DNA from: Candidatus Pacearchaeota archaeon
GTDB lineage: Archaea > Nanobdellota > Nanobdellia > Pacearchaeales > GW2011-AR1
Direction of reading: 5' to 3'
DNA length: 64,000 bases
Assembly (NCBI GenBank): GCA_018304985.1
Contig: JAGVWP010000001.1
Coordinates: 3,913 to 67,912 of the forward strand
A program made the translations under genes and the position numbers. Below the pieces are notes generated by a model. It was not told the DNA's origin and ran no database searches. It saw nothing but the letters and a program-made list of their open reading frames with translations. Positions 1 to 29,035 of this stretch are shown piece by piece; the stretch's first letter is position 1; each line of letters starts with the position of its first letter.

Positions 1-932
1 TAAAAAGAGCTAAAAAAGCAGAGTTAACAGGCAGGGATATAAACAAAATCTCAAAAGAAATAGTTGCAGAAGCTGGAGGCATTACAGTTATTCTTGGATT
101 TGTCCTTGGAGTTTTAATATATGTTGCTATAAAAACGTTTTATTTTAAATCTACAGATAATTTAATTGAGATATTTGCCTTAATCTGCACAATAATCCTG
201 GTTTCATTTATAGGAATGATTGATGATATATTAGGTTGGAAAATTGGGCTTGGCAAAAAAACAAGAATTTTTTTAGTTTTATTTGCATCAATTCCATTGA
301 TAGTTATTAATGCAGGAAATCCTGGAATTTCTATTCCTATTCTTGGAAAGATTAATATTGGGATAATTTACCCTCTAATATTAATTCCACTTGGCATTAT
401 AGGCGCTTCAACAACATTTAATTTCTTAGCAGGATATAATGGTCTTGAAGCAGGACAGGGCATAATTCTCTTGTCAACACTTGCAATTTTTTCTGCAGTA
501 ACTGGAACAACATGGCTTAGCTTAATTGCATTATGCATGATTGCTTCATTAGTTGCATTTTTGCATTATAATAAATATCCTGCAAAAATTTTTCCTGGAG
601 ATGTTCTGACTTATTCAGTTGGAGCGCTGATTGCAATAATGGCTATACTTGGAAATTATGAGCTTTTTGTATTATTTATTTTTCTACCTTATATTTTAGA
701 GGTTGGATTAAAGTTAAGAGGAAAGTTAAAAAAGGAATCATTTGCAATGCCTCAAAAAGACGGTTCAATAAAAAATAAATATAATAAATTTTACAGCCTT
801 GTTCATGTTGCAATAAAACTTCTGGAAAAAATCAAAAAAAGCAGAAAGGCTTACGAATGGGAAGTTGTTCTTCTTATCTATCTTTTCCAAATCATTATGG
901 TATTACTGGGTTTTTTTATATTTTTATACTAA
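1..932 (+). CDS. UDP-GlcNAc:dolichyl-phosphate GlcNAc-1-phosphate transferase family (MraY/WecA/AglH-like GT4), 5' partial
   Basis: The reading frame is open from the window start (frame 3) and stops at 932. It is polytopic, and carries the DDxxG and NxxAGxNGLEAGxG motifs typical of polyprenyl-phosphate hexose-1-P transferases. Confidence 0.7.
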   Translation, partial: KRAKKAELTGRDINKISKEIVAEAGGITVILGFVLGVLIYVAIKTFYFKSTDNLIEIFALICTIILVSFIGMIDDILGWKIGLGKKTRIFLVLFASIPLIVINAGNPGISIPILGKINIGIIYPLILIPLGIIGASTTFNFLAGYNGLEAGQGIILLSTLAIFSAVTGTTWLSLIALCMIASLVAFLHYNKYPAKIFPGDVLTYSVGALIAIMAILGNYELFVLFIFLPYILEVGLKLRGKLKKESFAMPQKDGSIKNKYNKFYSLVHVAIKLLEKIKKSRKAYEWEVVLLIYLFQIIMVLLGFFIFLY

Positions 933-5911: not shown

Positions 5912-5986
5912 AAAAGGATATGTCATAAAAAGAACCTTAGTATTTTAAGAGGAAGTTATTATAGAAGAAACCTTGGTGTCTTCTAT
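5912..5986 (+). repeat. intergenic bipartite palindromic repeat element (aaaagg..cataaaaagaaccttag + ggaagttattatagaagaaaccttggtgtcttctat), copy A
   Basis: Near-identical copy, inverted, at 12571-12648. Related copies occur at 28996-29035, 47546-47626 and 50473-50520. Confidence 0.8.
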
Positions 5987-7602
5987 TACTTATTAACTTT
6001 ATATATCACCACAGCAGGCTGCTGCTGAATTTGGTCGAAGAAAACTATTTTCTGGGGTGTGAGCATAGAACTTAAATTATTATTTGCATAATTTGCGGAT
6101 TCCTGAGTCTGATGCTCGAATGCATGAATTACAATATAATCTGCTTTTTGTACAGATCCTTGAAGATCAGTTATATTCCATACTTCGTATTTCCTTTCTG
6201 AATAATATATTACATAGGGATCAATTCCATCCCCTAAAATAACTGCATCTTTAGGTGTGTTGTCTTTAATCCATAAAAATGCTTCTTTCATCTGAGAGTA
6301 ACTCTGAGCTTTGTTTTTTATCAAATTATTTCCAAAGCTTACATTTGAATAAAGAGCTGTTAAAATAACTAAAATTAAAAATATAATTGCAATATTCTTT
6401 GAATATTTTTTTATTTTATCATAAGCAAAGAAAATACCTGAAGAAGTCATAACTAATATTGATATAAGCGGAAGAATAACATAACGATCTTCAGCAGCCC
6501 GCAACACAAAAATAAAGAATATGAAAGAGAAAATAAAGATTAGAAGAAAGAATAGATTTGATTCCAGTTTCTTTACTTTTAATATAGAATCAAATCCAAG
6601 TACTGTTTCTATAAATATAATGATAAATCCAATTATGAAAAATATCATTAAATTACTTGATAAAATGTTTGAACTAAATGGGTTTATAAAAAATGGACTA
6701 AATCCGAGATAGGGTTTAGGGCTTCCAAAGGTTGAAGCCTGTGGGCTTATATCGTAGGTTATAAAATCCAGTACATAAATAGCTATAGGCTTTCCTTCTG
6801 TACTTTGGGCATAAAGAGATGATGCTGGCAGCAGGCTTCCATAGTTCATTAAGTTAAATATTAAAAATATAATAATTGGCAATACTCCGATAATTCCCCC
6901 TATCCAAAATTGTTTATTTGCTAAGAATTTATGCTTGTGCTTAAGCAATACAAAAACAAGAAAAACAGCCCCTATAATTCCATAAAAATACCTTGTCATT
7001 ATTGCCAGAGATATAAAAAATATCGCCAAAGCAAATTTTTTGGTATTAAAATTCTCGTATGATTTTATAAAAAAGTAAATTGCTAAAAGAGAGAAAAATA
7101 GAGATGGAATATCTGACATTATTCTCATAGTGTAAAATAAATTAATCCATAAAACTGAAAAGATAAAGGATGATAATAAAGCGGTTCTTTTATCATAAAA
7201 CTCTTTAACTATAAGAAAGACAAGATAAACTGATAATATAGATGGAATTATTTCTAATATTAAAAGTATTCCAATATCTGATATGTTTAATTTAAGTAAA
7301 AAAGCCCACATTAATGAAAATAATGGCGGTCTTAGGGCTAACTCGTGAATTATAAATGGGTCATTAGGCCATAAGCCCATGGTTATCTGCTTGGCAATGC
7401 TTCCAAATGCCAAAGAATCCCACCAGTGTGCCTGATCTTTGACAATTGAGAATAAGTAAATTCTTATAATAACTGCCAGAGTTATAATTCCAAACAAAGC
7501 CAGATTATATTTGTCCCTAAGCCATGTTTCCAGCTTTGATTTTTCACTTTTTACATTGGTTTCTTTGCTAGATTCTTTATTAAGCTCTTTTTTATCTTCC
7601 AT
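5986..7602 (-). CDS. GT-C fold glycosyltransferase (GT39/ArnT/PMT-like membrane mannosyltransferase family)
   Basis: 538 aa with many TM helices; an acidic motif sits in the first extracytoplasmic loop; located in the glycan cluster. Confidence 0.55.
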   Translation of the reverse strand: MEDKKELNKESSKETNVKSEKSKLETWLRDKYNLALFGIITLAVIIRIYLFSIVKDQAHWWDSLAFGSIAKQITMGLWPNDPFIIHELALRPPLFSLMWAFLLKLNISDIGILLILEIIPSILSVYLVFLIVKEFYDKRTALLSSFIFSVLWINLFYTMRIMSDIPSLFFSLLAIYFFIKSYENFNTKKFALAIFFISLAIMTRYFYGIIGAVFLVFVLLKHKHKFLANKQFWIGGIIGVLPIIIFLIFNLMNYGSLLPASSLYAQSTEGKPIAIYVLDFITYDISPQASTFGSPKPYLGFSPFFINPFSSNILSSNLMIFFIIGFIIIFIETVLGFDSILKVKKLESNLFFLLIFIFSFIFFIFVLRAAEDRYVILPLISILVMTSSGIFFAYDKIKKYSKNIAIIFLILVILTALYSNVSFGNNLIKNKAQSYSQMKEAFLWIKDNTPKDAVILGDGIDPYVIYYSERKYEVWNITDLQGSVQKADYIVIHAFEHQTQESANYANNNLSSMLTPQKIVFFDQIQQQPAVVIYKVNK

Positions 7603-7684: not shown

Positions 7685-9238
7685 ATGAAAGTTTTATATG
7701 CTCATAAACATCATCCTATAGAACCTTTAGGAGTAGCTTATATATCAAGTTCTATAGCAAGAAGTGGGCATGAATCTAAATTAATGCTTACTCCAAGAAA
7801 TATAGATAAAGCGGTTGAGGAAGTATCAAGAGTTATCGATCAGGAGCATCCAGATATTTTTGCTCAAAGCATAATATTTGGAAGCCACAAATATGCTATT
7901 GACTTAAGTAGAAAAGTTAAAGAAAGATATCCAAAAATTATTAGTTTTCTTGGAGGGCCTGCTCCAACATTTACGCCTGGATTAATTTCAAGGGGATTTG
8001 ATGCTATATGTCGTTATGAAGGAGAAAATCCATTTCTAACTTTCTGTAATAATGTTGAATCTGGAGCAGATGTTGGAAACATCCCAAATATATGGGTTAT
8101 GGAAAATCCAGATTTATATAATACAGAAGTAAGAAAAGTAAAAAAAGTCTTAGATAAAAATGATCTAAATTACAAAAAAGAAAGTGGATATGATCCTCAA
8201 AGAAAAATGTTTGTAAATGATACTGGAGTACTTCTTGAAGATGAAACCTTAGAAAATATTCCATTTCCAGATAGAGAATTATTATATGAACATGAAATGT
8301 ATAGAGATAGTGATATAAAACATTATATGTCTACACGAGGTTGTGCATTTAAATGCTCTTATTGCCACGTACATGTTCAAAATGCTGATAATAAAGGAAA
8401 GGGCAGTCCTGTAAGAAGGAGACAGAATGAATCTGTTGCAGAAGAAGTATTAGCAATTAAGAAAAAATTTGGATCTAAAAATGATTATTTTCAGGATGAT
8501 ATTCATGGAGCTTCTTATAAATTAGAGTTTGCTAAAGAGTATGCAGAAGTTATGGCAGGAGTTTCTCAAAATGGGCACTGCCATGTTAGATTTGATCTTA
8601 TTGCCAAGCATCCAGATATCGCTAAATATCTTGCAAAAGCAGGAATTACTGGAGTTCATGTTGCAATAGAATCTGGGGACGATTATATTAGGAATCATGT
8701 TCATAGAAGAGGAATGACTATAGAAGAAATTCTTAAAGGAGCAAAATATTTACATGATAATGGAATAAAGATGATGACCCAAAATATTTTAGGAGCTGCC
8801 GGAGAAACAAAAGAACAAATGTTGAAAACTTTAGAATTAAACATTGCAGTTAGACCCACCTTTGCTTCTGCATCAATCTTCCAACCGTATCCTGGAACTA
8901 GTGCTTTAGAATATGCAAGAGATCATGGAGTTTTACCTTCAAATAGTGAGGATGAATTAATAGACCTTTTTGGAATGGAAACATTTTATAATAAAACTAT
9001 ACTAATTCAAGATCCTCAACATAAAAGATGGTTAGAACTTTTTCAGAAGTTTTTTGCAATTGCTGTCGCAAATCCTCAAATCTATCAATCTGGAGTTTTA
9101 GATAAAATAATTGCCACTTATCCTAAAGGAGAAGAAGCAAATAAAGAGTTGGAGCATATGTATAGATTACATAGAGCTGAAGCTGATGAAAAACTTTATG
9201 GTGTAAAACTTAAAGAGATAGTTATGGAAGAGAATTAA
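7685..9238 (+). CDS. B12-binding domain radical SAM protein
   Basis: The N-terminal region resembles a cobalamin-binding Rossmann domain. A CAFKCSYC radical-SAM cysteine motif follows. The start is moved to the ATG at 7685 (MKVLYAHK) to remove the overlap with the convergent gene. Confidence 0.75.
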   Translation: MKVLYAHKHHPIEPLGVAYISSSIARSGHESKLMLTPRNIDKAVEEVSRVIDQEHPDIFAQSIIFGSHKYAIDLSRKVKERYPKIISFLGGPAPTFTPGLISRGFDAICRYEGENPFLTFCNNVESGADVGNIPNIWVMENPDLYNTEVRKVKKVLDKNDLNYKKESGYDPQRKMFVNDTGVLLEDETLENIPFPDRELLYEHEMYRDSDIKHYMSTRGCAFKCSYCHVHVQNADNKGKGSPVRRRQNESVAEEVLAIKKKFGSKNDYFQDDIHGASYKLEFAKEYAEVMAGVSQNGHCHVRFDLIAKHPDIAKYLAKAGITGVHVAIESGDDYIRNHVHRRGMTIEEILKGAKYLHDNGIKMMTQNILGAAGETKEQMLKTLELNIAVRPTFASASIFQPYPGTSALEYARDHGVLPSNSEDELIDLFGMETFYNKTILIQDPQHKRWLELFQKFFAIAVANPQIYQSGVLDKIIATYPKGEEANKELEHMYRLHRAEADEKLYGVKLKEIVMEEN

Positions 9239-9249
9239 ATAAAATAATC

Positions 9250-11154
9250 TTACCTTGCAGATTCTATTCTTTCCCAATTATCAACACTTTTAAATTTTTT
9301 AATTTTTGTATTATAAAAAACAAGTATCCACATATATAATCGAGCTAAAATTAATTCCAATGTCCAAAATCCCTCTTTAAATGTAGTTGGATAAGTTATT
9401 ATATGTATAAAACCTTCTAATGTTTCATTTTTAAACGATTTTACTCTAGGAGTAATTTTAGTATCTGCATATTTATCCAGTGTTTCATGAGCTTTAGCAG
9501 TTCTTACTTTTTGTTTTATCCAATCTTTCCAGTTGCTAACATTTTTTACATAAACTCTAGCATTTTCAGCATATCCTATTTTATACCCCTTTTCCCAGAA
9601 ATAATAAGGAATAATTGTGTCCTCCGCAGTATCTAATGGTATCTCTATTTTATTATCTCCCCTAAATGCAAAAAGATATCCAGAACACTCTATAAAAGAA
9701 TTACTTTCAAATGCTTTCATTCTTAACTTATTTGCTGCTTCAAATAAAAAATTGGCCCAATAACCATACTTATCTTTTCTTGATTCTATAGGAACCGGTC
9801 TTCCAGTAACACATCCTATTTCAGGATCTAAGAATAAATTTGTTATTTCTTCAATTACATTATCACTTATAAATACGTCCCCGTCTGTCAATATTAAAAT
9901 ATCCTCTTTTTTTGTATTCTTTATTAACAGATTCAAAGCATACATTTTTCCTTTTCCAGGATCTTTAAATAATTTTATCTCTTTATTATGCTTAGAATAT
10001 TTTTTTGCAATATTCAAAGTTTCCTCGTCAGGAGCAGAGACGAGAATACCATAATCATATTTTGTTTTTTGGTTTAAAGCAGATTCAATTGCTCTGCCGA
10101 TATTTAGTTCTCTAAAAGCAGTTATAATTAATAAAATTTTAAAATTGATCATTTCTTCAATTGATCTAATTATTTCATGTAATGAAATTTTTCCCATGCT
10201 TTTACAATTCCTGCTATAACAGCATAAACAATTTGACTTTGCAATTATTTTTTTACCAAGACCATACATATCTATCTCATGATTTGATGTTGGTCCTATA
10301 AGCACAATTGTTTTCCTTTTCAAGGCAAGAGCAATATGAAGTCCAAGTGTATCCGAGGTTATAAATAAATTGCAAATACTCACTAATGCTGGAAATTCTA
10401 CTAGATCATTTCCACAACCAGTACTAATTATAGGCGCTTTAGCTAATTTAATTACCTCCATATTTCTTGTGGTTTCCTCAGGTCCTCCAAAAAGAAGAAT
10501 TTTTGCATTAAATTTATTATGAATTTCTTCAATTAATTTAACAGTCATTTTTATTGGCAGATCCTTGGGCCATCTTTCCCCAGATCCAGTATTAATACCT
10601 ACAATTAAATCGCTTCTGGACAAATTATGTCTCCTTAAAAAATCATTTGCAATAATTCTTTGGTCAGTATTTAATCTTAAAAATGGTTCATATTTTTCAA
10701 AATCTTTTATATCTATAATTGCAGACATAAGCTGTCTATGGGTCTTAATATTCTCTTTTTTTAAAATATCTGCTTTCTTTTTTCCATATTTACTAATTAA
10801 AGAGGTATTAAACCATTCTTCTGTCTCTGATGTATAAATTATTTTATTGTCTTTATCCAAAAAAGCCCCTAATAACTTTTTTGTATTTAAAAAAGAAACA
10901 AATTTTGCACTATCTTCATCTTCTTCAAGATTAATAACAAGATCAAAATTAATACTTTTCAGTTTTTCTTTATCTTCCTCTGCAACTATTTGATAAACAT
11001 AAGGATTATTAACAAACAAAGAAATTGCTTTTTTACTAGTAACCCAAAAAACCTTGGGGTCTTTATTTTTATACTTATCTTTTAAAGCTTGGGCTAAAAA
11101 ACTTGTTCTTACCACATCTCCCAAAGCTCCTGTCTTTATAATTAATATATTCAT
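9250..11154 (-). CDS. fusion of a GT9 (ADP-heptose:acceptor heptosyltransferase-like) domain and a GT2 domain
   Basis: The N-terminus MNILIIKTGALGDVVRTSFLAQALK matches the RfaC/RfaF family signature. The middle has GGPEE...SGCGNDL...SDTLGLHIA motifs. The C-terminal ~290 aa are GT2-like with DGD. Confidence 0.65.
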   Translation of the reverse strand: MNILIIKTGALGDVVRTSFLAQALKDKYKNKDPKVFWVTSKKAISLFVNNPYVYQIVAEEDKEKLKSINFDLVINLEEDEDSAKFVSFLNTKKLLGAFLDKDNKIIYTSETEEWFNTSLISKYGKKKADILKKENIKTHRQLMSAIIDIKDFEKYEPFLRLNTDQRIIANDFLRRHNLSRSDLIVGINTGSGERWPKDLPIKMTVKLIEEIHNKFNAKILLFGGPEETTRNMEVIKLAKAPIISTGCGNDLVEFPALVSICNLFITSDTLGLHIALALKRKTIVLIGPTSNHEIDMYGLGKKIIAKSNCLCCYSRNCKSMGKISLHEIIRSIEEMINFKILLIITAFRELNIGRAIESALNQKTKYDYGILVSAPDEETLNIAKKYSKHNKEIKLFKDPGKGKMYALNLLIKNTKKEDILILTDGDVFISDNVIEEITNLFLDPEIGCVTGRPVPIESRKDKYGYWANFLFEAANKLRMKAFESNSFIECSGYLFAFRGDNKIEIPLDTAEDTIIPYYFWEKGYKIGYAENARVYVKNVSNWKDWIKQKVRTAKAHETLDKYADTKITPRVKSFKNETLEGFIHIITYPTTFKEGFWTLELILARLYMWILVFYNTKIKKFKSVDNWERIESAR

Positions 11155-11248
11155 AGTAAAAGATGCTTATAGGTATTTAAAAACATTTAGACTCCATAAA
11201 TATGTTATATATAACAATATTTAAATAATTATTTAAAATAAGCTATAA

Positions 11249-11746
11249 ATGATAGAATTAGAAAAAAAACTACTCTCAATAGAAGAAATTAGTGAAATAA
11301 TTAACCCATTAAAAAATATTGGTAAGATAATAGTAACTACTAGCGGAAGTTTTGATATATTGCATTCAGCCCATGTCCATTTTCTTCAAAAAGCTAAAAA
11401 AGAGGGGGATGTGCTTATAGTTTTGCTGAATACTGATAGTTCAATCAAAAGAAATAAAGGAGAAAAAAGACCAATAGTCCCTGAAGATGAAAGAGCTAAA
11501 ATGCTTGTCTCTTTAGAATGTGTTGATTATGTTGTGATTTTTAATGAAGATAAGCCATTAAAATTACTGGAGATGATAAAGCCAAATATACATGTAAAAG
11601 GTGGAAGCTTTATTCCTGAAAGAATTAAAGAAGAAAAAGAACTCTTGGACTCATGGGAAGGAAAATATAAAACCTTTGAATTAGAAGAAGGATATTCCAC
11701 AACAAATATTATTCAAACTATATTAGAAAAATATAACAACATATAA
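11249..11746 (+). CDS. D-glycero-beta-D-manno-heptose-1-phosphate adenylyltransferase-like (HldE domain II / RfaE-II cytidylyltransferase-like)
   Basis: SGSFDILHSAHVHFL...NTDSSIKRNKGEKRPIVPEDER...VDYVVIFNEDKP...VKGG closely parallels the E. coli HldE C-terminal domain. Confidence 0.7.
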   Translation: MIELEKKLLSIEEISEIINPLKNIGKIIVTTSGSFDILHSAHVHFLQKAKKEGDVLIVLLNTDSSIKRNKGEKRPIVPEDERAKMLVSLECVDYVVIFNEDKPLKLLEMIKPNIHVKGGSFIPERIKEEKELLDSWEGKYKTFELEEGYSTTNIIQTILEKYNNI

Positions 11747-11749: not shown

Positions 11750-12421
11750 ATGCCCGAAAAAATGAAAATAAAATTTCATGCAACGGAAAATCAATATAAA
11801 CCCGTAGTGAGATATTTGAGAAATTACAGAAAAAAAGCAAAACTTATTGAAATTGGTGCCGGAGGTAGAACACTGCAAAAATTTCTTCCAGAAAATATCT
11901 CTTATTATAGCCTGGATTTTGACCCAAACTATGGCAAAGCTTTTTTCAAAGCAAAGCATGATTATCATTTTGACTTAGATAAAGGCAAACTTCCAGTTAA
12001 AGACAAATCTTATGATATTATTGTCTGCCTTGAGACTTTAGAGCATGTTATGTATCCCCAGAAAGTTGTGGATGAAATGAAAAGAGTTGCTAAAGACGAT
12101 GCAATCTTCTTTATATCAATTCCCAATGAGTATAATATCCTTCTTAGGTTGTATTATCTTTTTGGAAAAAAGCATAAAATGGATGAGACTTTTATGGTTG
12201 TTGAGAAGCATCTACATATACACAAGCCAAGAGTCAAGGATATTATAGGATTCTATAACAAGAACTTTACTATAAAAAAACTAGATTATATCTGGCAGTC
12301 AAGAAGCAGCATGTATTCAAAAATGGTTTATTTTATAGACAGAATAATTGATATTTTTGCAAAGATATATCCCAGTTTATTTGCAAAGATAATTTTAGTG
12401 AGAGCTGAGAAGAAAATTTAG
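11750..12421 (+). CDS. class I SAM-dependent methyltransferase
   Basis: IEIGAGG and LETLEHV motifs. Confidence 0.6.
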   Translation: MPEKMKIKFHATENQYKPVVRYLRNYRKKAKLIEIGAGGRTLQKFLPENISYYSLDFDPNYGKAFFKAKHDYHFDLDKGKLPVKDKSYDIIVCLETLEHVMYPQKVVDEMKRVAKDDAIFFISIPNEYNILLRLYYLFGKKHKMDETFMVVEKHLHIHKPRVKDIIGFYNKNFTIKKLDYIWQSRSSMYSKMVYFIDRIIDIFAKIYPSLFAKIILVRAEKKI

Positions 12422-12669: not shown

Positions 12670-13818
12670 TTAATCTTCATTAAACAAAACAGTTATTTCT
12701 TGTATTATCTTTTTCCAGCTGAATTTTTCAACTGACTTTCTGGCATTTTTTCTTATATTTAATATTTTTCTTTGATTTTTCTTATTTAGAATATAATTTA
12801 TTTTTTCTGCAAGCGCTTTTTCATCTCCTATATTAAATAAAAATCCGTTTTCAGTATCTTGGATTAAGTCTTTAGAAGCAAAATTATTGCTTGCAATAAC
12901 AATTTTTTGCCTTGACATAGCTTCGACAAGAGCCTGAGGCATGCCTTCTGCCTTACTCGGTAAAACAAATATCTTACATGAGTCTATTTTTTTTATTTTC
13001 TCTTTTAAATCATAGATTGGAGATGAAAAAACAACACTTTCTTTTAAGTTTAAATTATTAATCAATAAATCCAATTTCTTTTTATATTCCTCTTCAGCAG
13101 GACCGACAATCTCAATAATTATTTTTTTATCATTAGCATAGACAAGAGATTTTATCAGTGTTTCAAGACTTTTAATGGGCGAGATTCTTCCCAAAAAAAG
13201 AATTTTATTAAATTCATTTTTTTTATTAGATTTGTATTTAAAAAAATCCTCTGGAATTCCATTAGGAATATATGCCATTTGCTCTTTTTTTAATCCCAAC
13301 TCAAGTAAATATGGCTCTTCCCATTTAGTTATTGTTATAACTTTATTAAAATTATTCAGTGTTAATCTACCAATTATATTGTCATAAAACAACACTATTG
13401 TCTCGGATAATAAGCCTCTTGTTCTTGCAAATGGAGCATGAGTAACTAAAAATACCTTGCAATTAATATTTGCTTCTTTTAACTTTTTTGCTAATTTTAA
13501 TGCTTTTGTAGTATGTAAGTGCCTGTAGCTATGGGCAATAATTATATCAGGATGAAAATCAAGTGCTTTCTGCTGCGCATTTTTATCAAACCAATACATA
13601 AAGCTCTCACCGCCAAATTTTCTGAATGGAAATCTTTCTATTTTTACATTTCCAATTTTATCTTCTGCTGAAGCAAGTTCATTTGTTCCTTTAACTGAAT
13701 TTGATGAGAAAACAACAACTTCGTGTCCTTTTTTAGAAAGCAATTCTGACTCCTGTTTCACTCTTTGCCATACTCCACAAATTCCTGCTGAGAAATGGCA
13801 TAATTCTAAGATTTTCAT
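12670..13818 (-). CDS. family 4 glycosyltransferase (GT-B)
   Basis: The C-terminal EGMPQALVEAMSRQKIVIA motif is typical of GT4. Confidence 0.7.
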   Translation of the reverse strand: MKILELCHFSAGICGVWQRVKQESELLSKKGHEVVVFSSNSVKGTNELASAEDKIGNVKIERFPFRKFGGESFMYWFDKNAQQKALDFHPDIIIAHSYRHLHTTKALKLAKKLKEANINCKVFLVTHAPFARTRGLLSETIVLFYDNIIGRLTLNNFNKVITITKWEEPYLLELGLKKEQMAYIPNGIPEDFFKYKSNKKNEFNKILFLGRISPIKSLETLIKSLVYANDKKIIIEIVGPAEEEYKKKLDLLINNLNLKESVVFSSPIYDLKEKIKKIDSCKIFVLPSKAEGMPQALVEAMSRQKIVIASNNFASKDLIQDTENGFLFNIGDEKALAEKINYILNKKNQRKILNIRKNARKSVEKFSWKKIIQEITVLFNED

Positions 13819-14658: not shown

Positions 14659-16869
14659 TCAATCGACAAAAACCTTTTCTCCATTTTTTATCTTTTCAAT
14701 AATCATTTTGGATATTTCTGGCCTCATAAACCAGTTAGGTAGTTGTTTACCTGATTGAAGTATTTCTCGTGCTTGAGTTCCAGAAATATGAAGTTTATGT
14801 TCTTCAGGATGATCTAAAAATTCTGATTCATGAATATAATCATTTTCAAGATCTGAGTAAAACACTTTATCGAATTTTATTGGTTCTATTCCTAATTCCT
14901 CTTTTGTGAAATTATCAAATATTTTATGTGACATATTGGGATGATAAAAGTTTTCTACACCTGTATGATCTCTACCGATAATAAAATGTGAGCATCCAAA
15001 GTTTTTTCTAGCAAGAGCAGTAAAAACTGCTTCACGAGGACCACAGTATCTAGAGTAAGTTGCAAATGTTCCAAGAATTACTAAGGATTTAGGATAAAAT
15101 TCTTCTATCATCTTCTCGTAAGCATTTATTATTACTTCTGATTCAAAATCTCCTGATTTTTTCTTGCCTATAACTGGATGTACTAGTAATCCATCACACA
15201 ATCCTTTTTTCATACCTTCAAGTTGAATGAATTCATGAGATTTATGAATTACATTTCTTGTATGAAATCCGAGTACTTTAGACCAACCTCTCTCAGCAAA
15301 AATCTTTCTTGTTTGATGAGGAGTTAGTTCATATATTTTATTTTTTGAATTTCTTCTTTTTAGTAATGTAACTTTTCCTCCAAGAAAATTATTTCCTTTA
15401 TCCAAAAACATCCTCACCCCGGGATGAGTTCTATCAGTAGTGCCATATACTTTTTCAGCTATTTTTTCTTTATCTACTGAATATATCTCATCCAAATGCA
15501 TTATTCCATAAACTTCATTATTATAAGATAAAGCAACTTCTTCCCCTTGACTAAGGTTTTTTCTAACATCCTCATCAACCATTAAAACAATAGGGATTGG
15601 CCAGACTAACCCATTAGGTAACTTCATATTATCTGCTACAGAATTTAATTCTTCTTTATTCATAAATCCCTCGAGAGGGCTAAATGCTCCTATCGCAATT
15701 TGTTCTACATCCATTAATGTTTCCTCATCTACCTCTAATTTTTTCTCTGGAATTGGTCCAGGATAATTTGAATCTAAACGATTAATTAATTTACCACCGT
15801 GTGGTTTTGGAAGTAAGTCAGGAGTTTCTAAAGAAAGAGCGTAGTTTAACTCTTCAAGTTTGTCAATAAGATTTTCTTTTTTGCTTTTATCTAAAAATCT
15901 TATTTGATTTAGCAATAATAAAAGAGTGTTAACTGTTTCTACAGGGTATTTTCCTACTGCAGTTTCTTTAGTTAGGGCTATACCTGTTGCTCCATCTAAA
16001 ATCGTGTTAATTATATCATTAACTTCCCCCTTACTTGGTTTTAAAGCAAAGGCCATTTGTTCTAAAGTATTTGTTGCTACAAAAACTTCTTTTCCTAAAT
16101 CTCTTACTTTTTTGATAATTAATTTTTGAATAAATGGAATTTTTTCTAGAGGAACTTGACTGCTTAAATCTCCTCTATCTATTAGTATTCCATCAGAAAC
16201 TTGGGCTATTTTTTCGAAGTTCTCCAGACCTTTTTTTGATTCTATTTTAGAATACAATGTAACTTCAGGATAATTTTCTCTGAATTTTATAACACTCTCT
16301 GGGTTTTCCATGAATGATAAAGTAAAATGCTTGATATTATACTTTTTAGCAAGAGCTACTGCAGCATAATCTTTTTTACTAAAAGGGGGTAGATTAAATG
16401 TAGGACTATCTATTTGTACTGCTTTTTTCCCCCCGATTAATCCTCCAATAACTACTTTACATAAAATATACCCATTATCTCTTTCAGAAGTATCGAAAAT
16501 ACGTAGTAACACTGAATTAAAATCAATAGAAATTAGATCCCCTTCTTGTAATTTTTTAAATACTCCTTCAGGTTTTAAAAATAAATTTTGAGCATCACAT
16601 TCTATTTTATTTCCAAAGATTTTAACCATCCCTGATTCCTGAAATGTTATTTCCTTTATATTTCCAGATCTTATTTGTGACCCTTCTGTATCTAGAATAA
16701 TTGGCACTCCATAACCTAAAAGGTCTTTTATTCTCTGTTCTATATCTTTCTCTTCTGTATGAGATAGATTAATCCTGAAAAAATTAACTCCTCTGTCTTT
16801 AAGCTTCACTAATACCTCTTCTTTATTTGATGAGGGGCCAATAGTACAAATTATTTTATGATTTACCAT
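14659..16869 (-). CDS. sat: bifunctional fusion: pyruvate-kinase-like barrel domain (N-terminal) + sulfate adenylyltransferase / ATP sulfurylase (C-terminal)
   Basis: N-terminus: KIICTIGPSS...NFFRINLSHT...ILDTEGSQIRSG and DRGDLSSQVP...ATNTLEQM...DGATGIALTKETAVGKYP are PK catalytic motifs. C-terminus: HGGKLINR...AFSPLEGFM, GFHTRNVIHKSHE and ISGTQAREILQSG are ATP-sulfurylase motifs. Confidence 0.75.
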   Translation of the reverse strand: MVNHKIICTIGPSSNKEEVLVKLKDRGVNFFRINLSHTEEKDIEQRIKDLLGYGVPIILDTEGSQIRSGNIKEITFQESGMVKIFGNKIECDAQNLFLKPEGVFKKLQEGDLISIDFNSVLLRIFDTSERDNGYILCKVVIGGLIGGKKAVQIDSPTFNLPPFSKKDYAAVALAKKYNIKHFTLSFMENPESVIKFRENYPEVTLYSKIESKKGLENFEKIAQVSDGILIDRGDLSSQVPLEKIPFIQKLIIKKVRDLGKEVFVATNTLEQMAFALKPSKGEVNDIINTILDGATGIALTKETAVGKYPVETVNTLLLLLNQIRFLDKSKKENLIDKLEELNYALSLETPDLLPKPHGGKLINRLDSNYPGPIPEKKLEVDEETLMDVEQIAIGAFSPLEGFMNKEELNSVADNMKLPNGLVWPIPIVLMVDEDVRKNLSQGEEVALSYNNEVYGIMHLDEIYSVDKEKIAEKVYGTTDRTHPGVRMFLDKGNNFLGGKVTLLKRRNSKNKIYELTPHQTRKIFAERGWSKVLGFHTRNVIHKSHEFIQLEGMKKGLCDGLLVHPVIGKKKSGDFESEVIINAYEKMIEEFYPKSLVILGTFATYSRYCGPREAVFTALARKNFGCSHFIIGRDHTGVENFYHPNMSHKIFDNFTKEELGIEPIKFDKVFYSDLENDYIHESEFLDHPEEHKLHISGTQAREILQSGKQLPNWFMRPEISKMIIEKIKNGEKVFVD

Positions 16870-16927: not shown

Positions 16928-17842
16928 ATGGGCTCTAATAACTCAAGTGTTGATTTTGTGGGAATTGGTGTTGGAAGATCTGGAACAATTTGGATTTTAA
17001 ATGCTTTAGCAGAACATAAAGGAATTTGGTTTCCTTATACTAAAGAATTAAACTATTTTTCAAACCCCCATGGTGGAGAAGTAAGCGAGTATGACAAAAG
17101 AGGGATAAATGGGTACTTAGATTTGTTTAAAGAGTGTCCTAAAAATAAGATTAAGGGCGAATTTAGTTCACATTATATGCCTGATCCAAAGGTGCCAAAA
17201 ATATTGAAGAAGCATTTTCCAAATGTGAAAATATGGGCCATATTAAGAGATCCTGTTGAAAGAGCATTTTCAGATTATGTTAGAGGAAAGGAGTTCCATC
17301 TGAAAGAGAAAGATAGTTTTGAAGAAGCATTTTTCGCTGAAAAAAACATATTGTATAAAAAGGGTGACGGATATCAAGAACGAGGGTATTATTATAAACA
17401 TTTAAAGAGATATTTTGAACTATTTTCTAGAGAAAATATTAAGATAATTCTATATGATGATTTTAAAAAGGATAATGAAAAAGTAATAAAAGAACTCTAT
17501 GAATTTCTAGGAGTAGATCCTCTTTTCAAACCATCAATTATTGGGAAAAGGATAAATGAGCGTACTGGAACAAAGTTTAGAGGAATTAAGAAAGTAATAA
17601 CTTTCTTAGCAAAAATTTCGCATAAATTGGAAGAGGGTATGATAGGTAAGTTGATTTATACAATTAAAAGAAAAACAGGAATAAACAGATTTTTTAATCA
17701 GCTAAATGAACTAAACACAAAGAAAGAGGTTGAAAAGGAGAAATTAGATCCAGAATTAAGAGATAAATTAAAAGTAGTTTATTTAGATGATATAACAAAA
17801 CTTGAGAAGCTTATAGGAAGGGATTTAAGTGAATGGAAATAA
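16928..17842 (+). CDS. sulfotransferase
   Basis: 5'-PSB-like GRSGTIW motif and 3'-PB-like ILRDPVERAFSDY motif. Confidence 0.75.
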   Translation: MGSNNSSVDFVGIGVGRSGTIWILNALAEHKGIWFPYTKELNYFSNPHGGEVSEYDKRGINGYLDLFKECPKNKIKGEFSSHYMPDPKVPKILKKHFPNVKIWAILRDPVERAFSDYVRGKEFHLKEKDSFEEAFFAEKNILYKKGDGYQERGYYYKHLKRYFELFSRENIKIILYDDFKKDNEKVIKELYEFLGVDPLFKPSIIGKRINERTGTKFRGIKKVITFLAKISHKLEEGMIGKLIYTIKRKTGINRFFNQLNELNTKKEVEKEKLDPELRDKLKVVYLDDITKLEKLIGRDLSEWK

Positions 17843-19906: not shown

Positions 19907-21034
19907 ATGAAAAAAGCTCTAATAACAGGAATTACTGGACAGGATGGAAGCTATCTTGCAGAATTCCTACTTGAAAAGGGATATGAAGTTCATGGGATAA
20001 TAAGGAGAAGTAGCACTATAAACAGAGAAAGAATAGATCACTTAACAAAGCCAGAAATCCCTGCAGGACATACTGGAAAAGAAAAGGGAAGCTTTATTCT
20101 TCATTATGGAGATTTAACTGATTCAAGCTCTGTTGAAAAAATAATAAAAGAAGTTATGCCTGATGAAGTTTATAACCTTGGAGCACAGAGTCATGTAAGA
20201 GTTAGTTTTGACATACCTGAAAATACAACAAATGTTGTTGCTTTGGGAACATTAAGAATTTTAGAAGCTATAAAAAATGTATGTCCAAAGGCCAGATTTT
20301 ACCAGGCTTCTTCATCTGAAATGTTTGGGCAAGTAGCTGAGGTACCTCAAAAAGAAACAACTCCTTTTCATCCAAGAAGCCCTTATGGATGCGCTAAAGT
20401 GTATGCATATCATATAACAAGAAATTTCAGAGAGTCTTATGGAATTTTTGCATGTAATGGAATCTTGTTTAATCATGAGTCTGAAAGAAGAGGAGAGAAT
20501 TTTGTAACAAGAAAAATAACTCAATCATTATCGAGAATTAAAATGGGGCTTCAAACAGAAGTTTATCTTGGTAATTTAGATGCTGAAAGAGATTGGGGGC
20601 ATGCTAAGGATTATGTTGAAGCAATGTGGCTGATTTTGCAGCAAAATGAACCTGAAGATTATGTTATTGGTACTGGAGAAAAATATAGTGTAAGACAATT
20701 TCTGGAAGAGTCTGCAAAAACTCTTGGCATGAATATAAAATCTAATGGGAAAAGAGGAGTTGAAGAAGAATATTTAAATGAAAATGGGCAAGCAATTGTT
20801 AAAGTTCATCCAAGGTATTTCAGACCAGCTGAAGTTGATCTACTTTTATCAGACCCAACTAAAGCAAGAACTAAATTAGGGTGGATTCCAAAAATAACAT
20901 TTAAAGAACTAGTAAGGCTAATGTGTGATCATGATTTGAAACTTGCTGAAAAAGAATATTATCTTAAAAATAAAGTCAAGGTTGTTGATGATATTATAAA
21001 TATATTAAAAGATCAGAATAATAAATTTACTTAA
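19907..21034 (+). CDS. gmd: GDP-mannose 4,6-dehydratase
   Basis: [36 protein letters not shown] and downstream GMD-specific blocks ([24 protein letters not shown]). Confidence 0.9.
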
Positions 21035-21042
21035 ATAAAAAT

Positions 21043-22101
21043 ATGGAATATAAATATCCGGTTTCAAAGCCTTCTTTGAAAGGCAAAGAATTAGAGTATG
21101 TAACAAAAGCAATAAATGATGGATGGATTTCTTCTCAAGGACCTTATGTTCAAGAATTTGAAAAAGCCTTTGCAGAATTTAATGGAGTTAAACATGGAGT
21201 TGCTTGTTCTTCTGGAACAGCTGCGCTTACAATTGCTTTACGGGCATTAAATATAGGTCCTGGTGATGAAGTAATTGTGCCCGAATTTACAATGATTGCA
21301 AGTGCATGGGCAGTTACTTATACTGGAGCAAAACCTGTATTTGTTGATTGCAAAGATGATTTAACAATTGACGCAGATTTAATAGAAGAAAAAATAACTT
21401 CTAGAACACGAGCTATAATGCCAGTCCATATTTACGGAAGGCAGTGCGATATGGAAAAAATTATGGATATAGCTTATAATTATAACTTAAAAGTTATTGA
21501 AGATTCTGCAGAAGCCCATGGTGTGAAACCTACTGGAGATATGGCTTGTTTTTCGCTTTTTGCAAATAAAATAATATCTGCTGGCGAGGGGGGAGTGTGT
21601 GTTACAAATGACGACCATTTAGCGAAGCAGATGGTTCATTTAAGAGCAATGGCGTTTACTCCAGAACATAATTTTATCCATAAAAAAATAGCATATAATT
21701 TCAGGATGACTAATCTCCAGGCAGGAGTTGCTCTTGCGCAACTTGAAAGAATTGAGGAAATGCTTGCAAAAAGAAAAAAAATTGAAGATATTTATGATGA
21801 AAAACTAAAAAATATTAAACAAATAAAAGTAATGCCAAAAAGAAATGTTTTATGGATGTATGATCTTCTTGCAGAAAATAAACACGCCTTGCAAAAACAT
21901 CTCGAGGGATGTGGTATAGAAACAAGGCAGTTTTTCAAGCCAATGAGCCAGCAACCTATGTACTATGATCCTAATTGGAAAACTCTTAATGCGGCTAAAT
22001 TTGGGCACAGTGGCATTTATCTTCCAACATATGCTGACTTAACAGAAGAAGACCAGGAATATATTGTGAGCAAAATAAAAGAGTTCTATGATAAAATTTG
22101 A
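21043..22101 (+). CDS. DegT/DnrJ/EryC1/StrS-family PLP-dependent sugar aminotransferase (GDP-perosamine synthase-like)
   Basis: GDEVIVPEFTMIASAWAV, SLFANKIIS (the lysine region) and YNFRMTNLQAGVALAQLERI motifs. Confidence 0.8.
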   Translation: MEYKYPVSKPSLKGKELEYVTKAINDGWISSQGPYVQEFEKAFAEFNGVKHGVACSSGTAALTIALRALNIGPGDEVIVPEFTMIASAWAVTYTGAKPVFVDCKDDLTIDADLIEEKITSRTRAIMPVHIYGRQCDMEKIMDIAYNYNLKVIEDSAEAHGVKPTGDMACFSLFANKIISAGEGGVCVTNDDHLAKQMVHLRAMAFTPEHNFIHKKIAYNFRMTNLQAGVALAQLERIEEMLAKRKKIEDIYDEKLKNIKQIKVMPKRNVLWMYDLLAENKHALQKHLEGCGIETRQFFKPMSQQPMYYDPNWKTLNAAKFGHSGIYLPTYADLTEEDQEYIVSKIKEFYDKI

Positions 22102-28790: not shown

Positions 28791-28839
28791 TGTCCCCACG
28801 AGATAATTAACTTATTAGATAAAGAAATAAATAAAAAAA

Positions 28840-28952
<113 letters not shown>

Positions 28953-28995
28953 AATACACATATAAGAGTATTTTTAAACCTTTTGATATTGCTAT

Positions 28996-29035
28996 TTTAA
29001 GGAAGTTATTATAGAAGAAATGTAGTGTCTTCTAT
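28996..29035 (+). repeat. same family half-element (ggaagttattatagaagaaa..gtcttctat hairpin) abutting the 5' end of tRNA-Leu
   Basis: 33 of 40 nt identical to copy A positions 5947-5986. Confidence 0.7.

What the first reader, a model, noticed from the sequence alone, without database searches (positions are those of the whole stretch)
9250..11746. GT9 heptosyltransferase-like::GT2 fusion next to an HldE-domain-II-type adenylyltransferase, suggesting ADP-heptose chemistry in an archaeon
The N-terminal 340 aa carry the RfaC/RfaF GT9 signature (ILIIKTGALGDVV...). The divergent neighbour strongly resembles the ADP-heptose-forming adenylyltransferase domain of bacterial HldE. ADP-heptose pathways are essentially bacterial (LPS core, some S-layer glycans). 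GmhA, HldA and GmhB are not in the window.
Basis: partly seen in the sequence, partly recalled or inferred. Interest (0 to 1): 0.6.

Follow-up and report, generated by a model that had tools for sequence, protein, structure and literature searches.

The report
Archaeal heptose-type glycosylation gene pair
A tiny symbiotic-type archaeon (Pacearchaeota) carries, inside its protein-glycosylation gene cluster, a two-headed sugar-transferring enzyme and a sugar-activating enzyme of the kind bacteria use to put seven-carbon sugars (heptoses) on their surface, which offers a testable answer to what archaea use activated heptose for.

Summary
ORF 9250-11154(-) is a 634-aa GT9::GT2 fusion, confirmed by Pfam, an AlphaFold model (pLDDT 90.6) and fold matches to WaaF/WaaC. 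ORF 11249-11746(+) is a single-domain HldC/HldE-domain-II-type nucleotidyltransferase, not TagD (166 vs 46 bits; 43% vs 25% identity). The host is a Pacearchaeota (DPANN) archaeon, and the pair lies in an AglB-anchored N-glycosylation cluster. The fusion is not unique: hundreds of DPANN contigs carry it at 60-79% identity. In 8 of 19 long related loci it lies within 10 kb of an HldA-type kinase and/or HldC/HldE, and once beside a full GmhA/GmhB/HldD/kinase/HldC set. Orthologous HldC genes in other archaea sit in classic heptose operons with GT9 genes. Heptose-nucleotide chemistry feeding a lipid-linked glycan is therefore the best reading. Three caveats apply. No GmhA, kinase or GmhB occurs in about 84 kb of this genome. 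The local HldC subclade has an unusual HxAH motif and also occurs in housekeeping contexts. The premise that the pathway is "essentially bacterial" is outdated (Tang et al., Science 2024; heptose in the Thermoplasma N-glycan). Verdict: partly supported; a new variant of a known kind; moderate interest.

The parts
10141..11154 (-). GT9 (GT-B, heptosyltransferase-like) N-terminal domain of the 634-aa fusion, aa 1-338
   Evidence: PF01075 47.6 bits. Profile hits to 3tov and to WaaF 1psw. Foldseek TM 0.78 to 3tov, 0.68 to WaaF, 0.61-0.67 to WaaC. The equivalents of WaaC D13, K192(R), E222, D261 and H266 are invariant in 20/20 orthologues.
9250..10140 (-). GT2 (GT-A) C-terminal domain of the fusion plus two C-terminal helices (aa 574-587 and 592-618, the latter moderately hydrophobic)
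   Evidence: PF13641 54.9 and PF00535 52.3 bits. T423-D-G-D426 (DxD) is invariant. Fold and profile matches to hyaluronan synthase, TarP and the archaeal N-glycan mannosyltransferase PcManGT 6yv7. Kyte-Doolittle 1.54 for aa 595-613.
11155..11248 (.). 94-bp AT-rich divergent intergenic region with TATA-like boxes about 25 nt upstream of each start codon
   Evidence: Read directly. Weak evidence only, because such motifs are common by chance at 29% GC.
11249..11746 (+). Monodomain HldC/HldE-domain-II-type sugar-1-phosphate nucleotidyltransferase (heptose nucleotidyltransferase candidate), Pacearchaeota-type subclade with an H-S-A-H motif and L-E-E-G-Y-S-T-T
   Evidence: TIGR02199 166.2 bits vs TagD 46. 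Best PDB hit 5x9q (Burkholderia HldC) 93.5 bits vs TagD 33. 43% identical to E. coli HldE-II and 25% to TagD; groups with HldC/HldE-II sequences in the NJ tree (bootstrap support for that grouping is low). Motifs.
11750..12421 (+). SAM-dependent methyltransferase starting 4 nt after the HldC stop codon, probably co-transcribed
   Evidence: PF08241/PF13489. The same pair occurs on all contigs of this population.
7685..9238 (+). B12-binding radical SAM enzyme, a recurrent neighbour of HldC and the fusion
   Evidence: PF02310 + PF04055. Found next to HldC and/or the fusion in L100, L018, L019, L121, L123, L133 and L141, and near archaeal heptose operons L024, L027 and L063.
5986..7602 (-). PMT_2-type GT-C glycosyltransferase, one of the two most frequent neighbours of the fusion
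   Evidence: PF13231 59.3 bits. A PMT_2 homologue begins within about 2 kb of the fusion's end in most related loci with enough flank.
12670..13818 (-). GT4-family (Glycos_transf_1) glycosyltransferase, conserved neighbour of the fusion
   Evidence: PF00534 108 bits. Orthologues scoring 300-450 bits lie immediately upstream of the fusion in many loci.
216..932 (+). 3' part of the GT4 (PF00953) priming phosphosugar transferase; AglB/STT3 (911 aa) lies just upstream, outside the window
   Evidence: L139 shows STT3 911 aa, then GT4 333 aa, then the flippase at the start of the cluster.

Best explanation
The two genes are the donor-making and donor-using ends of a heptose-type branch of this Pacearchaeon's N-glycosylation (agl) cluster. 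The 165-aa enzyme condenses a beta-heptose-1-phosphate (or a very similar sugar-1-phosphate) with a nucleoside triphosphate to give a nucleotide-activated heptose. ADP-heptose is the most likely product, because the enzyme lacks the arginine that marks CTP/UTP-promiscuous enzymes. The GT9 domain of the fusion transfers that sugar, with inversion, onto a lipid-linked (dolichol-phosphate-type) oligosaccharide at the cytoplasmic face of the membrane. The fused GT2 domain, held at the membrane by its C-terminal helices, adds the neighbouring sugar. The glycan is then flipped, possibly extended outside by the adjacent PMT_2 GT-C enzyme, and transferred to protein by AglB. Shown: the domain identities, folds and conserved catalytic positions; the placement with HldC rather than TagD; the AglB cluster context; and the recurrent linkage of fusion orthologues to HldA kinase, HldC or HldE in relatives. 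Inferred: the donor identity, the acceptor, the order of steps, and where heptose-1-phosphate comes from in this genome.
For: Domain and fold. Conserved WaaC-equivalent residues. HldC classification: TIGR02199 166 vs TagD 46 bits; 5x9q 93.5 vs 1coz 33 bits; tree and identities; hallmark (F/L)XXGXSTT present as LEEGYSTT (motif from PMC11461863). Linkage in relatives: of 19 fusion loci of at least 16 kb, 8 have an HldA-type kinase and/or HldC/HldE within 10 kb (window, L108, L110, L111, L117, L121, L123, L133), plus the short contigs L100 and L137. L133 carries GmhA, GmhB, HldD, kinase and HldC around the fusion. A single-copy gene in a roughly 1-Mb genome would fall in a 20-kb span about 2% of the time. 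HldC-side count: 7 of 11 Pacearchaeota-type HldC loci have GT9 nearby. Other archaea have gmhA, kinase, gmhB, hldC, hldD and GT9 in operon order. AglB, GT4 and a flippase open the cluster. Precedent: archaeal heptose enzymes are active in vitro, and a heptose occurs in the T. acidophilum N-glycan.
Against: No GmhA, HldA-type kinase, GmhB or GHMP heptose kinase in about 84 kb of this genome. The kinase is patchy in the lineage: the closest kinase-bearing relative's kinase has only two close homologues in 5.8 billion proteins, whereas HldC and the fusion have hundreds. 11 of 19 long fusion loci show no heptose gene nearby. The local HldC subclade carries HxAH instead of the canonical HxGH (about 110 of 120 sequences), scores just below the TIGR02199 cutoff, and also sits in a conserved housekeeping context, S19e...DNA_alkylation-HldC-Cbf5. 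The GT9 domain scores only 32-40 bits against the LPS heptosyltransferase equivalogs, whose cutoffs are 134-185, so donor specificity cannot be read from sequence.
Confidence: 0.55

Rival explanations
1. Same enzyme families, different sugar. In this kinase-less, isomerase-less lineage, the HxAH-type HldC activates a sugar-1-phosphate other than canonical glycero-manno-heptose (for example beta-mannose-1-phosphate, a salvaged or host-derived sugar phosphate, or a sugar remodelled by the adjacent B12-radical SAM enzyme), and the divergent GT9 domain transfers that sugar.
For: No upstream heptose genes in about 84 kb. The module rSAM-HldC-fusion-PMT_2 recurs without a kinase in L100, L018, L019 and L141. 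There is a clade-specific HxAH motif. In L117 a Pacearchaeota-type HldC coexists next to a canonical HldE-type fusion, suggesting non-redundant roles. The GT9 domain is far below the heptosyltransferase equivalog cutoffs. From general knowledge, HldE and WaaC tolerate mannose analogues in vitro.
Against: The sister of the Pacearchaeota-type clade (L123) and one clade member (L117) lie beside HldA-type kinases. The fusion itself is often next to canonical kinase/HldE genes. Identity to proven HldC/HldE-II is 40-51% over the full length, including the C-terminal motif. Upstream genes could simply lie elsewhere in the roughly 1-Mb genome: the cluster also has GDP-mannose dehydratase without a GDP-mannose synthase nearby.
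Confidence: 0.28
2. The adjacency is incidental. The small nucleotidyltransferase is a core housekeeping enzyme of these archaea (for example a cofactor adenylyltransferase of the same PF01467 superfamily, such as a RibL-, PPAT- or NMNAT-like enzyme) that happens to lie in the glycan cluster here, and the GT9::GT2 enzyme uses ordinary nucleotide sugars.
For: The family is very widespread and 60-75% conserved in DPANN. Two genomes show the same non-glycan context, S19e...DNA_alkylation-HldC-TruB/Cbf5. L015 and L017 also lack glycan neighbours. Fusion loci L007-L009 lack any PF01467 gene within 10 kb.
Against: Cofactor-enzyme models score far lower (PPAT 28.6, RibF-type 25.8, NadD 15.8 bits, against rfaE_dom_II 166). 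The RibL-like 3glv scores 54 bits over only part of the protein and falls outside the HldC group. Adjacency to GT9 recurs in 7 of 11 loci at 63-79% identity, in different gene orders and orientations, which argues for selection rather than chance.
Confidence: 0.12
3. The small protein is a TagD-like glycerol-3-phosphate cytidylyltransferase making CDP-glycerol for a glycerol-phosphate decoration.
For: It belongs to the same Pfam family PF01467 and scores weakly against TIGR01518 (46 bits).
Against: 46 bits against a cutoff of 165, versus 166 bits for rfaE_dom_II. 25% identity to TagD versus 43% to HldE-II (the TagD sequence was verified against 1coz). TagD's RTEGISTT arginine position is Leu here, as in heptose enzymes. 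Orthologues sit in heptose operons.
Confidence: 0.03

Closest known systems
E. coli LPS heptosyltransferases WaaC (HepI) and WaaF (HepII), CAZy GT9
   Same: GT-B fold (Foldseek TM 0.61-0.68). N-terminal G-D motif with the catalytic Asp, and the D-(S/T)-x-x-x-H donor-site motif plus Arg/Lys and Glu positions, are conserved. Relatives are genetically linked to ADP-heptose-making genes.
   Different: Only about 16-17% structural-alignment identity. 32-40 bits against the equivalog models, whose cutoffs are 134-185. Fused to a GT2 domain with C-terminal helices. The host has no LPS or Kdo-lipid A, so the acceptor must differ (probably a dolichol-linked glycan in an AglB cluster).
[quoted passage not shown]
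   Same: 40-43% identity over the full length. Same size as monodomain HldC. (F/L)XXGXSTT motif present. Best NCBIfam and PDB matches.
   Different: H-x-A-H instead of H-x-G-H in the nucleotide-binding signature. Just under the TIGR02199 cutoff. No kinase partner nearby in this genome. Forms a DPANN-specific subclade.
Archaeal NDP-heptose biosynthetic enzymes (HBEs/HENases) of Tang et al., Science 2024
   Same: Monodomain heptose-nucleotidyltransferase type present in archaea. Operon-organised sets were found here in Methanosarcinales, Iainarchaeota, Woesearchaeota and Undinarchaeota.
   Different: According to the two commentaries read here, that work established synthesis and left the physiological use in archaea open. 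Here the nucleotidyltransferase is tied to a specific candidate acceptor-side enzyme inside an N-glycosylation cluster. The fifth motif position is Tyr/Phe, not the Arg (STTR5) linked to CTP/UTP promiscuity.
PcManGT, membrane GT2 mannosyltransferase of Pyrobaculum calidifontis (PDB 6yv7), and other membrane-associated GT2 enzymes (hyaluronan synthase, TarP)
   Same: The C-terminal half shares the GT-A fold with DxD and following helices. PcManGT is an archaeal mannosyltransferase by its PDB title; its N-glycan role is recalled from general knowledge.
   Different: Low identity (about 15%). Here the GT2 domain is covalently fused behind a GT9 domain. Only one or two moderately hydrophobic C-terminal helices, and no evidence of a polymer channel.
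Heptose-containing N-glycan of Thermoplasma acidophilum
   Same: Precedent that an archaeal AglB-type pathway can install a heptose (PMC11407970).
   Different: Different phylum. The transferase responsible was not identified in the passage read. No chemistry is available for any Pacearchaeon.

Membership tests
CAZy GT9 / Pfam PF01075 (heptosyltransferase family) | Sequence match to the family model above the curated threshold | tested here: met
   PF01075 47.6 bits vs cutoff 22, aa 63-318. Profile of 47 orthologues hits 3tov (58.7 bits) and WaaF 1psw (32.6 bits).
CAZy GT9 / Pfam PF01075 (heptosyltransferase family) | GT-B two-Rossmann fold superposable on WaaC/WaaF | tested here: met
   AF2 model pLDDT 90.6. 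Foldseek top hits 3tov TM 0.78, 1psw 0.68, WaaC 0.61-0.67.
CAZy GT9 / Pfam PF01075 (heptosyltransferase family) | Catalytic Asp (WaaC D13) and donor-site residues (K192, E222, D261, H266; residue roles recalled from the WaaC structural literature) | tested here: met
   D, R (as in WaaF), E, D and H are invariant in 20/20 fusion orthologues in a MAFFT alignment with E. coli WaaC/WaaF.
LPS heptosyltransferase I/II/III equivalogs (TIGR02193/02195/02201) | Score above the equivalog cutoff (orthology to the LPS core enzymes) | tested here: not met
   32.2, 39.6 and 31.8 bits vs cutoffs 185.3, 134.6 and 170.2. It is a GT9-family member but not an orthologue of WaaC, WaaF or WaaQ.
LPS heptosyltransferase I/II/III equivalogs (TIGR02193/02195/02201) | [quoted passage not shown] | not testable with these tools
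   Needs enzymology. The acceptor cannot be Kdo-lipid A in an archaeon. Only genomic association with HldA/HldC/HldE supports the donor.
Heptose-1-phosphate nucleotidyltransferase (HldC / HldE domain II; TIGR02199; HENase) | Score above the TIGR02199 equivalog-domain cutoff | tested here: not met
   166.2 bits vs cutoff 181.5. By far the best model, but just below its cutoff.
Heptose-1-phosphate nucleotidyltransferase (HldC / HldE domain II; TIGR02199; HENase) | C-terminal (F/L)XXGXSTT motif (as given in the commentaries on Tang et al. 2024) | tested here: met
   L-E-E-G-Y-S-T-T. About 100 of the 120 clade members have LxxG(F/Y)STT, and none has Arg at the fifth position (motif source).
Heptose-1-phosphate nucleotidyltransferase (HldC / HldE domain II; TIGR02199; HENase) | Canonical HxGH nucleotide-binding signature | tested here: inconclusive
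   H-S-A-H here. About 110 of 120 clade members have HxAH, whereas every kinase-linked or bacterial sequence with a locatable motif has HxGH. Both His residues are kept and Gly to Ala is conservative, but the functional effect is unknown.
Heptose-1-phosphate nucleotidyltransferase (HldC / HldE domain II; TIGR02199; HENase) | Groups with HldC/HldE-II rather than TagD, ECT or RibL-like proteins | tested here: met
   NJ tree and identities: 43% to E. coli HldE-II, 40% to 5x9q, 25% to TagD, 29% to ECT, 37% to partial 3glv. PDB phmmer 93.5 vs 33 bits. Bootstrap support is modest (60 for the subclade, 35 for the whole HldC-like group).
Heptose-1-phosphate nucleotidyltransferase (HldC / HldE domain II; TIGR02199; HENase) | Co-occurrence with GmhA, HldA-type kinase and GmhB in the same genome | tested here: inconclusive
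Present next to orthologues in L021, L024, L027, L063, L123 and L133.
Glycerol-3-phosphate cytidylyltransferase (TagD, TIGR01518) | Score above the equivalog cutoff and the RTEGISTT motif | tested here: not met
   46 bits vs cutoff 165.4. Leu replaces the motif's Arg. 25% identity.
Bifunctional HldE (NF008454) | N-terminal PfkB kinase domain fused to the adenylyltransferase | tested here: not met
   165 aa, adenylyltransferase part only (matches profile positions 319-473). Bifunctional versions exist in relatives L108, L111 and L117.
GT2 (GT-A) glycosyltransferases, Pfam PF00535/PF13641 | Family model above threshold, DxD motif and GT-A fold | tested here: met
   54.9 and 52.3 bits. D424-G-D426 invariant. 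Fold matches to hyaluronan synthase, TarP and PcManGT.

The most novel reading that the evidence does not exclude
Pacearchaeota run a shortened route that needs neither the isomerase nor the kinase. The HxAH-type HldC, the B12-radical SAM enzyme and the GT9::GT2 fusion would form a self-contained module that activates a salvaged (host-derived) or radical-SAM-remodelled sugar phosphate, possibly a C-methylated or chain-extended hexose that mimics a heptose, and installs it on the N-glycan. That would be a nucleotide-sugar pathway not described in any domain.
Probability: 0.12. Interest if true: 0.75.

Novelty: new variant of a known kind. Interest (0 to 1): 0.45.

Why it matters
Heptose-nucleotide synthesis was recently shown to exist in archaea, but the authors' own commentary says the reason archaea make manno-heptose remains elusive (PMC11573728). 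This locus and its many DPANN relatives supply a concrete candidate answer. A conserved GT9::GT2 enzyme sits inside AglB-type N-glycosylation clusters and is repeatedly linked to HldA, HldC or HldE genes. That makes the question testable with two recombinant proteins and a monosaccharide analysis. It would extend GT9 chemistry from bacterial LPS to archaeal protein glycans. It also bears on how ultra-small, host-dependent archaea build their surfaces, and on whether they expose or release heptose metabolites, which mammalian ALPK1 senses.

Tried and rejected
1. TagD/CDP-glycerol reading: rejected by profile scores, PDB scores, motif and tree.

2. Cofactor adenylyltransferase reading (RibL, PPAT, NMNAT): these models score no more than 29 bits. 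It is kept only as a low-probability rival because of the housekeeping context in L013 and L142.

3. Search for GmhA, HldA, GmhB, HddA and HldD in this genome: tblastn with E. coli K-12 proteins (taken from NC_000913.3) and with archaeal and DPANN probes found nothing in the window or in about 10 kb beyond each end. The only HldD-like hit is the GDP-mannose dehydratase. The HAD hydrolase at 53385-54014 is not GmhB-like.

4. Attempt to place a kinase on this genome's contig by matching contig lengths among homologues of the nearest relative's kinase: no match to 167,178 or 156,780 bp. The test is weak because only the best 120 of 7,981 hits are listed.

5. Walking the contig further was not possible, because look-ups are restricted to window proteins.

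6. The Tang et al. paper itself is not held, so only two commentaries were read. Literature searches for DPANN or archaeal GT9 heptosyltransferases found nothing relevant.

7. The first bootstrap tree run timed out and was redone with a faster distance routine.

8. TATA-like boxes in the divergent spacer were noted but given no weight at 29% GC.
Full report
**Observation**

ORF 9250-11154 on the minus strand encodes 634 aa. ORF 11249-11746 on the plus strand encodes 165 aa. They are divergent and separated by 94 bp.

Pfam places GT9 (PF01075, 47.6 bits, cutoff 22) on residues 63-318 of the large protein, and GT2 (PF13641 54.9 bits, PF00535 52.3 bits) on residues 340-552. The small protein is PF01467.

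In NCBIfam the small protein's best model by far is TIGR02199, the adenylyltransferase domain II of RfaE/HldE. It scores 166.2 bits, just under the 181.5 cutoff. The full-length HldE model scores 151.6 bits over profile positions 319-473. TagD (TIGR01518) scores 46 bits against a cutoff of 165.

The window is archaeal. It holds Orc1/Cdc6, the PolD small subunit, RNA polymerase subunit D and archaeal-type uS13 and uL13. GC content is about 29%. Both proteins are 100% identical to NCBI entries named Candidatus Pacearchaeota archaeon.

**Anatomy of the fusion**

An AlphaFold2 model built on 47 orthologues is confident (mean pLDDT 90.6, pTM 0.88).

- The N-terminal half superposes best on GT9 structures: Veillonella GT9 3tov (TM 0.78), E. 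coli WaaF 1psw (0.68) and WaaC (0.61-0.67).
- The C-terminal half matches membrane-associated GT2 enzymes: Chlorella hyaluronan synthase, TarP and the archaeal mannosyltransferase PcManGT 6yv7. A profile search of the PDB gives the same families.
- I aligned the fusion family with E. coli WaaC and WaaF, whose sequences were taken from NC_000913.3. The positions I know from the WaaC literature as catalytic or donor-binding are kept in 20 of 20 fusion orthologues: Asp13 is Asp, Lys192 is Arg (as in WaaF), Glu222 is Glu, Asp261 is Asp and His266 is His.
- The GT2 half keeps an invariant D-G-D. It ends in two helices, one of them moderately hydrophobic.
- The GT9 half scores only 32-40 bits against the LPS heptosyltransferase I/II/III equivalogs, whose cutoffs are 134-185. 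It is a GT9-family member but not an orthologue of the LPS enzymes.

**The small protein is HldC-type, not TagD**

- Its best solved relative is Burkholderia HldC 5x9q, at 93.5 bits over the full length. ECT scores 65, the RibL-like 3glv 54 (partial coverage only) and TagD 33.
- In a trimmed alignment it is 43% identical to E. coli HldE domain II, 40% to 5x9q, 41-51% to bacterial HldC/HldE sequences, 25% to TagD and 29% to ECT. I recalled the TagD sequence from memory and verified it as 100% identical to 1coz.
- In a neighbour-joining tree it falls inside the HldC/HldE-II group, in a Pacearchaeota-type subclade with bootstrap support 60. Support for the HldC-like group as a whole is low (35).
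- It carries the heptose-nucleotidyltransferase hallmark (F/L)XXGXSTT as L-E-E-G-Y-S-T-T. The fifth position is Tyr or Phe throughout the clade, never the Arg associated with CTP/UTP promiscuity (motif as described in PMC11461863).
- One clade-specific oddity: about 110 of 120 members have H-x-A-H (H-S-A-H here) where kinase-linked and bacterial enzymes have the canonical H-x-G-H.

**Local context**

The first 28 kb of the window is one large glycan cluster. It holds a GT4 priming transferase, two flippases, several GT2 and GT1 enzymes, two PMT_2 GT-C enzymes, methyltransferases and a polysaccharide deacetylase. It also holds a pyruvate-kinase-barrel::ATP-sulfurylase fusion next to a sulfotransferase, and a GDP-mannose dehydratase next to a DegT aminotransferase.

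Looking 10 kb beyond the window start shows AglB/STT3 (911 aa) immediately upstream of the priming transferase. The finding therefore sits in an AglB-anchored N-glycosylation cluster.

**Is the pair peculiar to this genome? No.**

The fusion has hundreds of full-length orthologues (about 630 aa, 60-79% identity) in Pacearchaeota, Nanoarchaeota and Woesearchaeota contigs. Several are already auto-annotated as heptosyltransferase, for example in archaeon GW2011_AR19. The small protein has 827 relatives, and the best 120 are all single-domain proteins of about 160 aa (nearly all 150-175 aa) at 59-76% identity.

**Is the pairing conserved, and does it connect to heptose synthesis?**

I fetched 39 metagenomic loci around fusion orthologues, 80 genome loci around HldC relatives and a dozen further contexts. 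I probed all of them with E. coli GmhA, GmhB, HldE (both halves), HldD, WaaC and WaaF, and with archaeal versions of the same proteins.

*First result: other archaea.* HldC orthologues (about 46-49% identical) sit in classic heptose operons together with GT9 genes.

| Locus | Lineage | Heptose-type genes around HldC |
|---|---|---|
| L021 | Methanosarcinales | GT9, gmhA, hldC, kinase, then two more GT9 genes |
| L024 | Iainarchaeota | kinase, gmhB, hldC, hldD, GT9 |
| L027 | Woesearchaeota | GT9, hldD, kinase, gmhB, hldC, B12-rSAM |
| L063 | Undinarchaeota | gmhA, kinase, hldC, GT9 |

*Second result: the fusion's relatives.* Of 19 fusion loci at least 16 kb long, 8 have an HldA-type kinase and/or HldC/HldE within 10 kb.

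| Locus | Heptose-pathway genes near the fusion |
|---|---|
| window | HldC only |
| L108, L111 | PfkB::nucleotidyltransferase (HldE-like) |
| L110, L121 | kinase only |
| L117 | three nucleotidyltransferase fusions, one of them HldE-like |
| L123 | fusion, rSAM, HldC, kinase in that order |
| L133 | GmhA, a GHMP kinase, GmhB, HldD, an RpiB::nucleotidyltransferase and a PfkB kinase |

The short contigs L100 (HldC) and L137 (kinase) show direct adjacency as well. For a single-copy gene in a roughly 1-Mb genome, the chance expectation for a 20-kb span is about 2%.

*Third result: counting from the HldC side.* 7 of 11 Pacearchaeota-type HldC loci have GT9 nearby. In L018 and L019 the GT9 and GT2 parts are separate genes. 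L141 shows the module GT1, rSAM, HldC, fusion, PMT_2 in one direction.

The most constant neighbours of the fusion are a GT1 enzyme upstream and a PMT_2 GT-C enzyme downstream.

**What argues for caution**

- In this genome, none of GmhA, an HldA-type kinase, GmhB or a GHMP heptose kinase is detectable in the window or in 10 kb beyond either end, about 84 kb in total. This holds at E below 1e-3 with probes from close relatives.
- The kinase is patchy in the lineage. The kinase of the nearest kinase-bearing relative (L121, fusion 70% identical) has only two close homologues in the whole database. All other hits are at or below about 44% identity and are a mix of archaea and bacteria. The fusion and HldC each have hundreds of close relatives.
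- Eleven of the 19 long fusion loci have no heptose gene nearby.
- The HxAH-type HldC also occurs in a second conserved, non-glycan context, S19e...DNA_alkylation-HldC-TruB/Cbf5 (L013 and L142).
- In L117 a Pacearchaeota-type HldC sits beside a canonical HldE-type gene, which suggests the two are not redundant.

**Most likely mechanism (confidence about 0.55)**

1. The 165-aa enzyme makes a nucleotide-activated heptose, probably ADP-heptose, from heptose-1-phosphate.
2. The GT9 domain transfers it onto a lipid-linked oligosaccharide at the cytoplasmic face of the membrane.
3. The fused GT2 domain adds the neighbouring sugar.
4. The glycan is flipped, possibly extended by the adjacent PMT_2 GT-C enzyme, and transferred to protein by AglB.

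The folds, motifs, phylogenetic placement, cluster context and recurrent linkage are shown. The donor, the acceptor, the order of steps and the origin of heptose-1-phosphate are inferred.

The main rival (about 0.28) keeps the same enzyme families but has them handle a different sugar-1-phosphate in kinase-less genomes. An incidental-adjacency or housekeeping reading gets about 0.12. TagD is effectively excluded.

**Comparison with what is known**

According to two commentaries on Tang et al. (Science 2024), heptose biosynthetic enzymes, including single-domain nucleotidyltransferases, occur and are active in archaea. One of them, written by authors of that study, states that the reason archaea make manno-heptose remains elusive (PMC11461863, PMC11573728). 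A heptose is documented in the Thermoplasma acidophilum N-glycan (PMC11407970).

I found no literature on GT9 enzymes in DPANN or on a GT9::GT2 fusion. The Science paper itself is not held.

What appears new is threefold:

- a conserved GT9::GT2 architecture sitting inside AglB clusters;
- its recurrent linkage to HldA, HldC or HldE genes;
- the HxAH subclade of HldC.

I class this as a new variant of a known kind, of moderate interest (0.45). It turns an open question, what archaea use activated heptose for, into a directly testable hypothesis.

Noticed in passing
window 14659-16869 (-) and 16928-17842 (+); also L007 482-2695: A 736-aa fusion of a pyruvate-kinase barrel domain, a PUA_2 domain and ATP sulfurylase lies divergently next to a sulfotransferase. 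The same fusion recurs in another Pacearchaeota glycan cluster (737 aa; a sulfotransferase-like gene with only a faint Pfam hit sits just upstream). This suggests a sulfated glycan, but no APS kinase was seen, so how PAPS (or APS) would be supplied is unclear.
   Followed up: partly
window 7685-9238 (+); L100, L018, L019, L121, L123, L133, L141, and L024, L027, L063: A B12-binding radical SAM enzyme recurs right next to HldC and/or the GT9::GT2 fusion, and near archaeal heptose operons. Its best NCBIfam hit is HpnJ at 88 bits (cutoff 578), so its function is unknown. It may methylate or rearrange the sugar or the glycan.
   Followed up: partly
L013 2673-3176 and L142 10001-10492: The Pacearchaeota-type HldC (HxAH motif) has a second conserved neighbourhood with no glycan genes: ribosomal protein S19e ... 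DNA_alkylation protein - HldC - TruB/Cbf5 (then MCM in L142). This suggests it is a core gene in some lineages.
   Followed up: partly
L117 15691-21389 (-); L133 2273-3818 and 11968-12855; L123 15380-16369: Relatives show unusual fusions of the nucleotidyltransferase domain. They include an ARMT1-like damage-control phosphatase::nucleotidyltransferase (866 aa), a PfkB::nucleotidyltransferase, and an HldC::unknown domain with weak ArgZ-like Rossmann similarity (the same unknown domain is a separate gene after the kinase in L123). L133 has an RpiB sugar-phosphate isomerase::nucleotidyltransferase, plus a GHMP kinase next to GmhA.
   Followed up: partly
L123 4547-5860: A cytidylyltransferase-like::PEP mutase fusion (phosphonate-type chemistry) lies in the same glycan cluster as a fusion orthologue.
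   Followed up: no
window 19907-22101 (+): GDP-mannose 4,6-dehydratase is followed by a DegT-type aminotransferase (a GDP-perosamine-like branch), with no GDP-mannose pyrophosphorylase nearby. This is another case in the cluster of late enzymes without the early ones.
   Followed up: no
window 28839-29368: A 5S rRNA (minus strand, 28839-28951) sits next to three tRNAs. The one at 29169-29247 is found by Rfam but not by ARAGORN, so it may be atypical or intron-containing.
   Followed up: no
window 59313-63264 and L140 12599-17455: A gap of about 940 bp with no ORF of 100 aa or more precedes orc1/cdc6, which is followed by the PolD small subunit, an HD-domain gene and the PolD large subunit. This is a likely replication origin region. 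The large subunit (just outside the window) carries an intein with a weak LAGLIDADG domain hit.
   Followed up: no
window 54019-59312: A tyrosine recombinase/integrase (54019-54846, minus strand) is followed by a run of small, mostly unannotated ORFs. This may be an integrated mobile element between the housekeeping genes and the origin region.
   Followed up: no
window 32952-33896 (-): A free-standing 314-aa protein has weak HTH and LAGLIDADG-like domain hits, both below Pfam's cutoffs. It may be a homing-endonuclease relic.
   Followed up: no
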